From sequence record MN850574.1: a DNA stretch of 64,000 bases; one strand, written 5' to 3'. This DNA is from Escherichia phage kaaroe. Positions 55,467 through 57,643 of the stretch are shown piece by piece (position 1 is the first letter of the stretch; each line of letters opens with the position of its first letter). The translations under genes were made by a program, and so were the position numbers. The notes beneath the pieces are model-generated. The model saw only the letters and a program-made list of their open reading frames with translations, made no database searches and was not told the origin of the DNA.

Positions 55467-55495
55467 TTGACTTTCTGGTGATAGGGCTATATTAT
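55467..55495 (+). promoter_or_regulatory. sigma70-type promoter TTGACT-17-TATTAT
   Basis: read directly upstream of the transglycosylase gene. Confidence 0.5.
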
Positions 55496-55529: not shown

Positions 55530-56120
55530 ATGTTAAAAGTTCTAAAAGCGATAGTATTGAGTCTGTCACTAGCCGTTGGTGCTACACACGCATCGACTAG
55601 CGCACCGATCAAAAAAGCGCCGATAGACAACTTTACACCACACCAACTAGATAATTTACATTTCGCCTATCAATACGGCGAGCAATTCGAGAAAAGCGGT
55701 AAGTTGAAAAAGTACCATCCGAATATTCGCTATAACGGAAAGGGTTTAGGTCACATCCTGGCGGGTATCGCATGGCAAGAATCAAGCGCGGGTGCAAACT
55801 TAGCACCAAAGAAAAATCATCATGCTTATGGATTATTTCAAAATTACCTTAAAACGGTGAAAGCGAAAAATGAAAAGCGCGGTGTTAAAATGAGTGATCG
55901 CCAGACTATCAACTTTATCATGAATCGCGAGGTTTCTGCATTCTACGCGATGGATGAGTTAGCATACTGGCTGGATATTCGAAACGGTAATATCAGACTC
56001 GCGCTAGCTTCTTACAATGCTGGATGGAACTATAAAGCCGGATTAGGTTATGCTGATGACGTACTAAAAAAGGCTAACCATCTAAAGAGTAAAGGCATTC
56101 TTAAGACTAAACGCTATTGA
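55530..56120 (+). CDS. secreted lytic transglycosylase (SLT domain) with signal peptide
   Basis: N-terminal signal peptide; E-S (AWQESS), GLFQ and SYNAG motifs of family-1 lytic transglycosylases. Confidence 0.75.
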   Translation: MLKVLKAIVLSLSLAVGATHASTSAPIKKAPIDNFTPHQLDNLHFAYQYGEQFEKSGKLKKYHPNIRYNGKGLGHILAGIAWQESSAGANLAPKKNHHAYGLFQNYLKTVKAKNEKRGVKMSDRQTINFIMNREVSAFYAMDELAYWLDIRNGNIRLALASYNAGWNYKAGLGYADDVLKKANHLKSKGILKTKRY

Positions 56121-56127
56121 GGAATAT

Positions 56128-56487
56128 ATGAAAAAGTTGACAATAATTGCTATGATTGCTATGATGTTCTCTGCTGGTGCGCTTGCTAGTAATGAGCGCC
56201 CTTATCCAAAGTTCGAATACAAAGGATTTGAGATCAACAAAAAGATCATTAAAACTTTCTGTGATGATGATAACATGTGTAGTGATTTTATCGCGCTCGA
56301 ACTTGATGAAGCATACAAACAAGGTCGAGACGAAAAACGAAAAAATCGAGCGTGGGATCTGAGTATTGCCAGCTTTGCTAAAACAAAACGTAACCTGTGT
56401 GATACTGCCCCTGATAAGCAATTATGCTTTGCTTATCGCGACACACTGTTAAGCCGTTTTATGGCTGGGTTGTCTTCCCGTGACTAA
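56128..56487 (+). CDS. secreted/periplasmic Cys-containing protein
   Basis: signal peptide MKKLTIIAMIAMMFSAGALA. Confidence 0.5.
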   Translation: MKKLTIIAMIAMMFSAGALASNERPYPKFEYKGFEINKKIIKTFCDDDNMCSDFIALELDEAYKQGRDEKRKNRAWDLSIASFAKTKRNLCDTAPDKQLCFAYRDTLLSRFMAGLSSRD

Positions 56488-56502
56488 TGTGAGGTTTATA
56501 TT

Positions 56503-56958
56503 ATGATTATTGATACTGTAAAGGGCGATCTCATCGCCCTGTTTAAACAAGGAAACGGTCATTTAATTCATGGTTGTAATTGTTTTCATACTATGGGCGC
56601 TGGTATTGCTGCGAAGATCGCGAAAGAGTTCCCGCAAGCGTTAGAGATTGACAAGCAAACTTCTCGCGGTAAGGTCGAAAAGCTGGGTGGGTTTAGTGTC
56701 TGGACGCATCAAGTTAATGGTTATAACTGGTGCGGGGTGAATCTCTATACCCAATTCCGACCGGGTCCAAATGCTGAATATGGTGCTATCCTGAAAGGAT
56801 TTGAGTCTCTCAATGATGTTTTTGAGGGTGCTATACAGCCTTTCTATATTCCTAAAATCGGTTGCGGTATCGGTGGCCTTGAGTGGGAATGTGTAGAAGA
56901 GATCATTAATATTGCTACTCCAGACATTAACATTGTGGTGGTTGAATATGACAAATAA
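56503..56958 (+). CDS. macrodomain protein, TARG1/DarG-like (ADP-ribose binding/hydrolase)
   Basis: motif LIHGCNCFHTMGAGIAAKIAKEFP matches the TARG1/OARD1-type signature (H-C-x-x-x-C-x-M-G-x-G-I-A...F-P); 151 aa. Confidence 0.7.
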   Translation: MIIDTVKGDLIALFKQGNGHLIHGCNCFHTMGAGIAAKIAKEFPQALEIDKQTSRGKVEKLGGFSVWTHQVNGYNWCGVNLYTQFRPGPNAEYGAILKGFESLNDVFEGAIQPFYIPKIGCGIGGLEWECVEEIINIATPDINIVVVEYDK

Positions 56959-57142
56959 AAATGATCTATATTCCGGTGATTGGGTGAAACGTCAGTCTGT
57001 AGAAAACGTAACTTGTTTTCGTTGTTTCATTGAATACAATATAAAAACCGCTCCTGTTAGTGTTCCAAAGACAGACGGGTATTATATTAAAGAACCGCAT
57101 TGCCCTAAATGTAAATGTCGATTATATTGGAGTCATCTATGA
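56948..57142 (+). CDS. small Zn-ribbon-like protein
   Basis: CxxC...CxxC pairs; start moved to internal ATG. Confidence 0.45.
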   Translation: MTNKNDLYSGDWVKRQSVENVTCFRCFIEYNIKTAPVSVPKTDGYYIKEPHCPKCKCRLYWSHL

Positions 57143-57357
57143 AGAAGCCTAATACCGCTCACATGAAGGAAAACTGCCGATGTGGTAGATGTGGTTGGCC
57201 TATTATATTCACTTGCTGTAACGACGATATGCAGCGTTTACCGTGGGGAATGTGGGATTGGTGGATGTATTGCAGCAATAAAGGTTGCGACCATCATGAA
57301 GGCGAAGGAGTCTTTCAGGAAACGCCTGATTGGGTGGAGGTGATAGAAAATGCTTGA
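57139..57357 (+). CDS. small Cys-rich protein
   Basis: CRCGRCG...CC...C..GC; ATGA overlap. Confidence 0.45.
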   Translation: MKKPNTAHMKENCRCGRCGWPIIFTCCNDDMQRLPWGMWDWWMYCSNKGCDHHEGEGVFQETPDWVEVIENA

Positions 57358-57643
57358 GACTATCATTAATCTTGTTGTGTGGACTTTTATTTTCGTTATT
57401 GTTATTATGGCGGGTATAGAGATTGTAAAACAATATCTATTGCAATCTCGAAATAAACATGTTGTGATTGATATGGACTCGCAAGGCAATAAGTTGATCC
57501 GGTTAGAAGATGGTCGGGAATATTGGGTTGGATATCCTAAAACGCTAAAAGGGTTTATCCTTGCCATGAGCATTAACATCTTTTTTATTGGTATCTGGAC
57601 TTATATCGGTTTAGGTCTTGCTGGATTTTTGGAGATTAATTAA
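57350..57643 (+). CDS. small membrane protein
   Basis: 97 aa, two TM helices. Confidence 0.45.
   Translation: MLETIINLVVWTFIFVIVIMAGIEIVKQYLLQSRNKHVVIDMDSQGNKLIRLEDGREYWVGYPKTLKGFILAMSINIFFIGIWTYIGLGLAGFLEIN

What the first reader, a model, noticed from the sequence alone, without database searches (positions are those of the whole stretch)
56503..56958. Phage-encoded TARG1/DarG-like macrodomain: candidate reversal of host ADP-ribosylation defence
Seen in sequence: the 151-aa protein carries LIHGCNCFHTMGAGIAAKIAKEFP, which matches the signature of the TARG1/OARD1 macrodomain family (from memory, the family to which the DarG antitoxin macrodomain is related). Established knowledge: DarT ADP-ribosylates DNA and DarTG acts as anti-phage defence; macrodomains remove ADP-ribose. 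Inference: this early gene may detoxify ADP-ribosylated phage DNA or proteins.
Basis: partly seen in the sequence, partly recalled or inferred. Interest (0 to 1): 0.65.

Follow-up and report, generated by a model that had tools for sequence, protein, structure and literature searches.

The report
Phage Tk.4/AdfM macrodomain, anti-DarTG2 factor

Summary
The 151-aa ORF at 56503..56958 (+) is real, and the quoted motif is residues 21-44. It is a confident macrodomain: Pfam Macro is above threshold, the AlphaFold2 model has pLDDT 97, and the best solved-structure matches are TARG1 and the DarG macrodomains. The window is a Krischvirus (RB49-like) genome. The gene is the syntenic orthologue of T4 tk.4 (44% identity, E 3e-45), in the order regB, vs.1, vs, tk.4, three small ORFs, tk.

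A 2025 preprint showed that deleting T4 tk.4 sensitises T4 to DarTG2, and renamed the gene adfM. A 2026 paper showed DNA de-ADP-ribosylation by an unrelated-lineage phage macrodomain, PhiKZ gp104.

One nuance appears not to have been remarked on. The catalytic lysine of TARG1 (K84) and DarG (K80) is glutamine here (Q84). It is Gln in about 254 of 257 family members, including T4 Tk.4. TARG1's D125 is glycine. This matches the lysine-free SCO6735/BT1257 type, where Gln85 is essential and the enzyme still cleaves thymidine-linked ADP-ribose on DNA.

The protein lacks DarG's C-terminal DarT-binding domain and has no darT neighbour. No enzymatic activity has been shown for any Tk.4 protein.

The parts
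56503..56958 (+). tk.4 / adfM orthologue: CDS for a 151-aa single-domain macrodomain protein (stop codon included)
   Evidence: ORF. Pfam Macro. PHROG 335. 44% identity and E 3e-45 to T4 Tk.4 over the full length. AF2 pLDDT 97. Foldseek best matches TARG1 and DarG.
56491..56494 (+). Shine-Dalgarno GAGG, 8 nt upstream of the ATG
   Evidence: Read directly from the sequence.
56569..56610 (+). Residues 23-36, HGCNCFHTMGAGIA: first ADP-ribose-binding loop. It contains the invariant N26 (56578-56580), which corresponds to DarG N22 and SCO6735 N27.
   Evidence: N26, M31, G34 and A36 are invariant in 76 homologues. N26 is present in 265 of 269 aligned rows. Column correspondence is from alignment A2. 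The role of this Asn in DarG and SCO6735 is from PMC9411070.
56740..56754 (+). Residues 80-84, NLYTQ: catalytic-loop motif. Q84 (CAA, 56752-56754) occupies the position of the catalytic Lys of TARG1 (K84), DarG (K80) and PhiKZ AdfM (K78), and of the essential Gln85 of SCO6735.
   Evidence: phmmer, profile hmmsearch and MAFFT all place Q84 in the Lys column. Q is found in 75 of 76 homologues and in 258 of 269 aligned rows, with no full-length family member other than P0020 (K) and P0148 (L) deviating.
56851..56886 (+). Residues 117-128, PKIGCGIGGLEW: second, diphosphate-binding glycine-rich loop. G124 sits at the position of TARG1 D125.
   Evidence: P117, I119, G120 and G122 are invariant, and G125 and W128 are at least 90% conserved. 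Aligned with TARG1 PRIGCGLDRLQW and DarG PPLGVGNGGLDW.
55467..55495 (+). Candidate sigma-70-type promoter (TTGACT-17-TATTAT) in the regB/vs.1 intergenic gap. It could drive the tightly packed vs.1-vs-tk.4-...-tk gene string.
   Evidence: Consensus scan, 10 of 12 matches. Weak: the number of such sites in the region (18) is not above the shuffled expectation (14.4 +/- 3.5).
56137..56165 (+). Second promoter-like site (TTGACA-17-TATGAT with an upstream TG) inside vs, about 340 nt upstream of tk.4
   Evidence: Consensus scan, 11 of 12 matches. Not evidence of function.
56948..57142 (+). Downstream small zinc-binding protein gene. Its ATG overlaps the end of tk.4 by 11 nt, suggesting translational coupling and the same transcription unit.
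   Evidence: Sequence. JSE annotation transferred by offset. PF23903 at E 4e-23.

Best explanation
The gene encodes the Krischvirus (RB49-type) orthologue of T4 Tk.4/AdfM. It is a free-standing macrodomain ADP-ribosylglycohydrolase of the ALC1-like class (TARG1, DarG, SCO6735). During infection of a host carrying DarTG2, released DarT2 attaches ADP-ribose to thymidines in single-stranded phage DNA and blocks replication. The phage enzyme binds the ADP-ribose in the cleft formed by the two glycine-rich loops (residues 31-36 and 119-125). It then hydrolyses the thymine-ribose bond and restores replicable DNA. Catalysis most likely follows the lysine-independent SCO6735 route. In that route Gln84, held in place by Asn26, positions the distal ribose and the transition state, and a backbone-bound water starts the reaction. 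There is no Lys nucleophile as in TARG1 and DarG.

Shown here: the ORF, the fold, the class, orthology and synteny with T4 tk.4, and conservation of N26, Q84 and the glycine loops. Taken from the literature: the T4 knock-out phenotype, and the biochemistry of SCO6735, DarG, TARG1 and PhiKZ AdfM. Inferred: that this protein is catalytically active on T-ADPr DNA, and that Gln84 plays the SCO6735-type role.
For: The macro fold is predicted with pLDDT 97. The nearest solved structures are TARG1, Poa1p, DarG, BT1257 and SCO6735. The PADLOC DarG and NCBIfam DarG models hit the macrodomain part only.

The protein is 44% identical to T4 Tk.4 over its full length, and the gene order regB, vs.1, vs, tk.4, small ORFs, tk, rI is the same. 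T4 tk.4 was the only significant hit in a DarTG2 screen, and its deletion sensitises T4 to DarTG2. T4 lacking adfA and adfN stays resistant to DarTG2.

Hydrolysis of thymidine-linked ADP-ribose is shared by DarG, TARG1 and SCO6735, all members of this class. SCO6735 has Gln85 at the Lys position, Q85A abolishes its activity, and N27S nearly does so. The same Asn and Gln are essentially invariant in the Tk.4 family. A phage macrodomain of another lineage, PhiKZ gp104, removes DarT2 ADP-ribose from DNA in vitro. The comparison with the JSE orthologue suggests purifying selection (dN/dS 0.11, few changes).
Against: No Tk.4-family protein has been assayed, and the T4 evidence is a genetic phenotype in a preprint. 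This protein is only 44% identical to T4 Tk.4. The canonical catalytic residues of TARG1 (K84, D125) and DarG (K80) are absent. The protein also lacks the longer Lys-rich mobile loop that SCO6735 uses for DNA binding (gap in A2). The SCO6735 analogy is therefore partial. RB49-type phages have not, in the papers I could search, been tested on DarTG2 hosts.
Confidence: 0.72

Rival explanations
1. The protein's main substrate is something other than DNA. Candidates are ADP-ribosylated proteins (host ADP-ribosyltransferases, or the phage's own Alt/Mod-type ones), ADP-ribosylated RNA, or a small ADP-ribose derivative such as ADP-ribose-1''-phosphate or O-acetyl-ADP-ribose. The last of these is what the database label 'phosphatase / A1pp motif' implies. 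Any anti-DarT2 effect would then be secondary or absent in this phage.
For: RefSeq and PHROG label the family 'phosphatase'. Some sources call relatives O-acetyl-ADP-ribose deacetylase. The yeast ADP-ribose-1''-phosphatase Poa1p is among the closest structures (E 8e-13 by profile, E 1.5e-9 by Foldseek). TARG1 and SCO6735 also act on proteins. Macrodomains as a whole have a wide substrate range.
Against: The 'phosphatase' label is the historical A1pp name for the macro domain, not a test. In T4 the tk.4 mutant phenotype was specific to DarTG2, and tk.4 was the only hit. Every characterised member of the nearest class cleaves T-ADPr DNA.
Confidence: 0.15
2. The protein neutralises DarT2 mainly without catalysis. 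It would bind the toxin, its ADP-ribosylated DNA product, or free ADP-ribose, acting as a stoichiometric inhibitor or sponge. The Lys-to-Gln change would then mark a binding-only macrodomain.
For: Catalytically dead SCO6735 Q85A, DarG K80A and TARG1 K84A all inhibit DarT in vitro, and SCO6735 inhibits it most strongly. The canonical catalytic Lys is missing. Other anti-DarT factors such as AdfB act by binding.
Against: There is no counterpart of DarG's C-terminal DarT-binding domain. The protein is 151 aa and matches only positions 3-141 of 329 in the DarG model. In SCO6735 Gln at this position is compatible with, and required for, catalysis. The near-invariance of N26, T83, Q84 and both glycine loops across about 250 diverse sequences fits an enzyme.
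Confidence: 0.1
3. The ORF is a chance or decayed reading frame with no function.
For: None found.
Against: It has a strong SD, a full-length high-confidence fold and thousands of homologues. It is intact in 57 of 58 closely related genomes, and synonymous changes exceed non-synonymous ones.
Confidence: 0.01

Closest known systems
Phage T4 Tk.4 = AdfM (anti-DarT factor Macrodomain; bioRxiv 10.1101/2025.11.20.689424)
   Same: It is a full-length orthologue: 44% identity, E 3e-45, and 151 vs 155 aa. It sits at the same genomic position between vs and tk. It has the same NLYTQ motif with Gln at the catalytic-Lys position, and the same HGCNCFHTMG loop.
   Different: The sequence has diverged by 56%. 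The second loop reads GCGIGGLEW here and GAGIGKGNW in T4. The host-range group differs (Krischvirus, not Tequatrovirus). The anti-DarTG2 phenotype was shown only for T4.
Streptomyces coelicolor SCO6735 and Bacteroides BT1257 (PDB 5e3b, 2fg1): lysine-free ALC1-like macrodomains
   Same: They are free-standing proteins of about 150 aa in the same class. Gln occupies the position of the catalytic Lys, with an Asn that positions it (N26/Q84 here, N27/Q85 in SCO6735). Gly occupies the TARG1 D125 position. SCO6735 cleaves thymidine-linked ADP-ribose on ssDNA.
   Different: Identity is only 22-24%. The first loop is GGWGKG in SCO6735/BT1257 and TMGAGIA here, which is TARG1-like. The Tk.4 family lacks the 5-residue-longer, Lys-rich mobile loop of SCO6735. 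SCO6735 is a chromosomal bacterial protein, not a phage anti-defence gene.
DarG (DarG2) antitoxin macrodomain (T. aquaticus 5m31/5m3e, M. tuberculosis 5m3i)
   Same: The fold is the same (TM 0.78-0.80) and this was the best single-sequence match among solved structures (E 7e-8). The Asn (N22 in DarG, N26 here) and the GxGxGGL(D/E)W loop are conserved. The enzyme reverses DarT2 thymidine ADP-ribosylation.
   Different: DarG uses Lys80, whereas this protein has Gln84. DarG has a C-terminal DarT-binding domain and is encoded next to darT, and both are absent here. NCBIfam DarG scores 50.5 bits against a cut-off of 250.
Human TARG1/OARD1 (PDB 4j5r, 4j5s)
   Same: It is the best Foldseek match (E 5e-11, 28-29% identity). 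The RMGAGIA and PRIGCG loops are shared, and so is the size. It cleaves T-ADPr DNA.
   Different: The TARG1 catalytic dyad K84/D125 is Q84/G124 here. TARG1 has Ser where this protein has N26.
Chimallivirus AdfM (PhiKZ gp104; Cell Rep 2026, PMC13309987)
   Same: It is a phage-encoded single macrodomain that counters DarTG2. De-ADP-ribosylation of DNA was shown in vitro.
   Different: It belongs to a different lineage, with only 26% identity (pairwise E 1e-6). It is of the true DarG type, with the FPTK motif, K78, and E 9e-25 to M. tuberculosis DarG. It is imported into the phage nucleus. The shared name AdfM covers two separate acquisitions.

Membership tests
Macrodomain superfamily (Pfam PF01661) | Profile match above the curated threshold and the three-layer alpha/beta macro fold | tested here: met
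   29.9 bits against a gathering score of 22. AF2 pLDDT 97 with a mixed beta-sheet and helices. 181 PDB macrodomain matches at E <= 0.001.
Macrodomain superfamily (Pfam PF01661) | Two glycine-rich ADP-ribose/diphosphate-binding loops | tested here: met
   M31-G32-A33-G34-I35-A36 and I119-G120-C121-G122-I123-G124-G125 are invariant or nearly so, and align with the corresponding loops of TARG1, DarG and SCO6735.
T-even Tk.4 / AdfM family | Full-length orthology to T4 Tk.4 | tested here: met
   BLASTP 44% identity, E 3e-45, residues 1-150 against 1-152. PHROG 335 at E 6e-63.
T-even Tk.4 / AdfM family | Conserved position in the vs.1-vs-tk.4-...-tk gene string | tested here: met
   T4 annotation, JSE annotation, and Pfam/PHROG identities of the window's neighbours.
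T-even Tk.4 / AdfM family | Required for growth on DarTG2-carrying hosts | not testable with these tools
   Shown for T4 only. It needs a phage knock-out and plaque assays.
DarG (DarG2) antitoxin | Macrodomain similar to the DarG N-terminal domain | tested here: met
   PADLOC DarG at E 9e-15. 5m3i at E 7e-8. TM 0.78-0.80.
DarG (DarG2) antitoxin | Catalytic lysine (T. aquaticus K80) in the FPTK motif | tested here: not met
   Gln84 lies in the Lys column in the phmmer, hmmsearch and MAFFT alignments.
DarG (DarG2) antitoxin | C-terminal DarT-binding domain (full-length model) | tested here: not met
   The protein ends at residue 151. Only positions 3-141 of 329 of the PADLOC model and 2-141 of 338 of NF048014 are matched, and the score is 50.5 bits against a cut-off of 250.
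DarG (DarG2) antitoxin | Encoded next to a darT toxin gene | tested here: not met
   The neighbours are vs and a zinc-binding small protein, and no ADP-ribosyltransferase is nearby.
TARG1/OARD1 | Closest fold and shared loop signature | tested here: met
   Foldseek rank 1-5, E 5e-11. Profile E 1.4e-14.
TARG1/OARD1 | Catalytic dyad Lys84 / Asp125 | tested here: not met
   Q84 and G124 occupy these columns.
SCO6735/BT1257-type lysine-free ALC1-like macrodomains | Gln at the catalytic-Lys position, together with the Asn that positions it | tested here: met
   Q84 and N26 align with SCO6735 Q85 and N27. Their roles in SCO6735 are from PMC9411070.
SCO6735/BT1257-type lysine-free ALC1-like macrodomains | Extended Lys-rich mobile loop after the Gln, and a GGWGKG first loop | tested here: not met
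   Alignment A2 shows a gap where SCO6735 and BT1257 have the insertion, and the first loop here is TMGAGIA.
SCO6735/BT1257-type lysine-free ALC1-like macrodomains | Hydrolysis of thymidine-linked ADP-ribose on ssDNA | not testable with these tools
   It needs an enzyme assay.
Poa1p-type ADP-ribose-1''-phosphate phosphatase (the 'phosphatase' annotation) | Phosphatase activity on Appr-1''-P and the Poa1p catalytic residues | not tested
   Only overall similarity was seen (E 8e-13, TM 0.71). Residue-level correspondence to Poa1p H23 and S30 was not established.

The most novel reading that the evidence does not exclude
The T-even Tk.4/AdfM clade may be a lysine-free, Gln-dependent (SCO6735-like) ADP-ribosylglycohydrolase rather than a captured DarG antitoxin. 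On this reading phages took it from free-standing bacterial macrodomains, and it has since moved between phage families. Like SCO6735 and TARG1, it may act on both DNA and protein (or RNA) ADP-ribosylation. It could then protect against more ADP-ribosyltransferase defences than DarTG2, or edit marks laid down by the phage's own ADP-ribosyltransferases.
Probability: 0.4. Interest if true: 0.45.

Novelty: already known. Interest (0 to 1): 0.3.

Why it matters
DarTG is a widespread toxin-antitoxin defence that stops phages by ADP-ribosylating their DNA. Knowing which phages carry erasers helps predict host range, for instance when choosing therapeutic phages. This gene shows that RB49-type coliphages carry the same counter-measure as T4.

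The useful addition is mechanistic. The whole T-even AdfM family lacks the catalytic lysine of DarG and TARG1 and has a conserved Gln instead. It is therefore a natural test-bed for the lysine-independent mechanism proposed for SCO6735. It also means the two phage proteins called AdfM (T4 Tk.4 and PhiKZ gp104) are independent solutions to the same problem.

Tried and rejected
1. Full DarG antitoxin: rejected. Only the macrodomain half matches, there is no C-terminal domain, and there is no darT neighbour.

2. AdfB-like mimicry (phage ICP1): not relevant. AdfB resembles the DarG C-terminal, DarT-binding part, not the macrodomain.

3. Same lineage as the biochemically characterised PhiKZ AdfM: rejected. 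Identity is 26%, and PhiKZ gp104 is Lys-type with a much stronger DarG match.

4. Membership of the SCO6735/BT1257 subfamily proper: not supported. The family profile scores BT1257, TARG1, SCO6735 and M. tuberculosis DarG almost equally (61, 58, 57 and 54 bits), and the SCO6735 loop insertion is missing.

5. Promoter evidence for 'early gene': the scan found plausible sites, but no more than in shuffled sequence.

6. A second macrodomain copy in the window: none found by six-frame profile search.

7. A link to DarT in bacterial relatives: the one chromosomal homologue examined (Pelagimonas) sits among housekeeping genes.

8. Published enzymology of T4 Tk.4: literature searches found none.

9. 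Other anti-DarT genes were not looked for in the window. By my reading of T4-type gene order, adfN (gene 30.3) and adfA (gene 61.2) should lie outside the stretch this window covers.

Full report
**Observation**

The window has an ATG-to-TAA reading frame at 56503..56958 on the + strand, encoding 151 aa. A GAGG ribosome-binding site lies 8 nt upstream. The stop codon of the preceding gene (vs) is 15 nt upstream. The next gene's ATG (56948) overlaps the end of the ORF, so the gene sits in a tightly packed, co-oriented string. The opposite strand is full of stops.

**Identity of the window and the gene**

The 2.8 kb around the ORF is 98-99.5% identical to 57 Krischvirus genomes, including RB49, JSE, Phi1, GEC-3S and Sf20. 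The protein is 100% identical to that of RB49. In the annotated relatives the gene is called tk.4, with products such as 'phosphatase', 'contains A1pp phosphatase motif' or 'macro domain protein'.

Pfam and PHROG scans of the neighbours give this order: regB endoribonuclease, vs.1 (SLT transglycosylase domain), vs (valyl-tRNA synthetase modifier), tk.4, two small zinc-binding proteins, a 97-aa protein of unknown function, thymidine kinase, and rI antiholin. T4 has the same order. T4 Tk.4 aligns over its full length at 44% identity (E 3e-45). The gene is therefore the syntenic orthologue of T4 tk.4.

**Fold and class**

- Pfam Macro is above its gathering threshold.
- The PADLOC DarG model matches at E 9e-15, but only over its first 141 of 329 positions.
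- The NCBIfam DarG equivalog scores 50.5 bits against a cut-off of 250.
- Against sequences of solved structures, the single sequence best matches the M. tuberculosis DarG macrodomain, then BT1257, TARG1 and SCO6735.
- A profile of 76 homologues matches BT1257, TARG1, SCO6735, M. tuberculosis DarG and Poa1p with nearly equal scores of 61 to 52 bits.
- AlphaFold2 on that alignment gives pLDDT 97 and pTM 0.91.
- Foldseek against the PDB ranks TARG1 first (E 5e-11, TM 0.76-0.82). Poa1p follows, then the DarG macrodomains (TM 0.78-0.80), BT1257 and SCO6735. Viral MacroD-type domains score clearly lower.
- Against predicted viral structures, the best match is 'tk.4' of Acinetobacter phage 133 (TM 0.90).

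**What is already known**

A bioRxiv preprint of November 2025 (10.1101/2025.11.20.689424) ran a transposon screen of T4 on a DarTG2-expressing host. tk.4 was the single significant hit, and a clean deletion sensitised T4 to DarTG2. The authors noted structural similarity to M. tuberculosis DarG and renamed the gene adfM. They inferred enzymatic removal of ADP-ribose from DNA but did not measure it.

Earlier work had shown that T4 lacking adfA and adfN remains resistant to DarTG2, which predicted a further factor. A Cell Reports paper of 2026 showed that the PhiKZ macrodomain gp104, also named AdfM, removes DarT2-made ADP-ribose from an oligonucleotide and protects chimalliviruses from DarTG2.

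The literature searches I could run found no enzymology for any Tk.4 protein.

**The active site differs from DarG and TARG1**

Three independent alignments (phmmer, profile hmmsearch, MAFFT) put Gln84 of the motif N80-L-Y-T-Q84 in one column. That column holds the catalytic Lys of TARG1 (ITK84), of T. aquaticus and M. tuberculosis DarG (FPTK80) and of PhiKZ AdfM (FPTK78). Gly124 falls at TARG1 Asp125.

The Gln is not peculiar to this phage. It is present in 75 of 76 homologues and in essentially all of about 257 family sequences, including T4 Tk.4. The exceptions are one Lys variant (P0020) and one Leu variant (P0148). Asn26, which corresponds to DarG N22, is invariant.

The same Gln occurs in SCO6735 and BT1257. 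For SCO6735, PMC9411070 reports the following:
- The enzyme lacks the TARG1 and DarG catalytic residues.
- It cleaves DarT-made thymidine-linked ADP-ribose on ssDNA efficiently.
- It is inactivated by Q85A and Q85E, and nearly inactivated by N27S.
- The authors propose a water- and backbone-mediated mechanism in which Gln85 positions the distal ribose.

T-ADPr hydrolysis is common to DarG, TARG1 and SCO6735. The most economical mechanism for the Tk.4 family is therefore the SCO6735-type, lysine-independent one.

The analogy is incomplete. The Tk.4 family has a TARG1-like first loop (TMGAGIA, not GGWGKG). It also lacks the longer Lys-rich loop that SCO6735 uses for DNA binding. I treat it as its own subfamily of the class.

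**Relationship to other phage factors**

PhiKZ AdfM is only 26% identical to this protein. It is a genuine DarG-type macrodomain, with E 9e-25 to M. tuberculosis DarG and the FPTK motif. The name AdfM therefore now covers two independent lineages. ICP1 AdfB mimics the other half of DarG, the DarT-binding domain.

**Distribution**

- Homologues occur in 2,734 of 50,697 phage records.
- The profile finds 1,334 clusters (at 50% identity) at E <= 1e-30 and 8,935 at E <= 1e-10, mostly single-domain proteins of about 150 aa.
- One chromosomal bacterial homologue, in Pelagimonas, sits among housekeeping genes without a darT neighbour. This is compatible with descent from free-standing macrodomains rather than from DarG.
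- Vequintaviruses carry a copy 68-69% identical to the RB49 type, closer than any T4-type Tk.4.
- The window contains only one macrodomain.
- Against the JSE orthologue there are 5 synonymous and 2 non-synonymous changes (dN/dS 0.11).

**Expression**

Promoter-like sites exist upstream of vs.1 (55467-55495) and inside vs (56137-56165). The scan finds no more such sites than in shuffled sequence. 'Early gene' therefore rests on the analogy with T4, not on this sequence.

**Verdict**

The gene belongs to an anti-DarTG2 family that has already been described, so novelty is low.

The part worth carrying forward is the conserved Lys-to-Gln active site of the whole T-even AdfM family. It predicts SCO6735-like chemistry and possibly a wider substrate range, and it can be tested directly with existing DarT2 oligonucleotide assays. 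The main uncertainty is that catalysis has not been measured for any family member, and that this orthologue has not been tested on a DarTG2 host.

Noticed in passing
L006:4001-4459 (Escherichia phage AlexBoehm, Vequintavirus); also P0006 (phage EduardKellenberger): rV5-like Vequintaviruses carry a Tk.4 homologue 68-69% identical to the RB49-type protein. This is much closer than T4 Tk.4 (44%) or other T4-type copies (about 44-50%), which suggests gene exchange between Krischvirus and Vequintavirus. The flanking genes there are all annotated as hypothetical.
   Followed up: partly
window 56948-57142 and 57139-57357 (+): Two small Cys-rich proteins lie directly downstream of tk.4, each overlapping its neighbour by a few bases. 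They match the Pfam 'Phage zinc binding domain' families PF23903 (E 4e-23) and PF23895 (E 6e-34). Their function is unknown. They occupy the place of T4 tk.3, tk.2 and tk.1.
   Followed up: partly
window 57350-57643 (+): This 97-aa protein has hydrophobic N- and C-terminal stretches and may be a membrane protein. It matches PHROG 16027 (unknown function) and no Pfam family. Its stop overlaps the start of thymidine kinase.
   Followed up: no
window 55530-56120 (+), vs.1: The vs.1 orthologue carries an SLT lytic-transglycosylase domain (PF01464, E 7e-6, above threshold) behind a hydrophobic N-terminal leader. The public records annotate it only as hypothetical.
   Followed up: no
P0020 and P0148 (homologues from metagenomes): These are rare variants of the family at the Gln84 position. 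P0020 has Lys (NLYTKYW), like DarG and TARG1. P0148 (451 aa, two macro-like stretches) has Leu.
   Followed up: no
L004:8001-8459 (Pelagimonas phthalicica chromosome): A bacterial chromosomal member of the Tk.4-like, Gln-type family stands alone among housekeeping genes (queuosine synthesis, YhdP, peroxiredoxin, biotin synthase). No darT or phage genes are nearby.
   Followed up: partly
BFVD entry A0A481YV05 (Marseillevirus LCMAC103): A giant-virus protein labelled 'SNF2 subfamily protein' contains a macrodomain 39% identical to this one (TM 0.91). The label echoes ALC1, the SNF2-family protein with a macrodomain that gives this macrodomain class its name.
   Followed up: no
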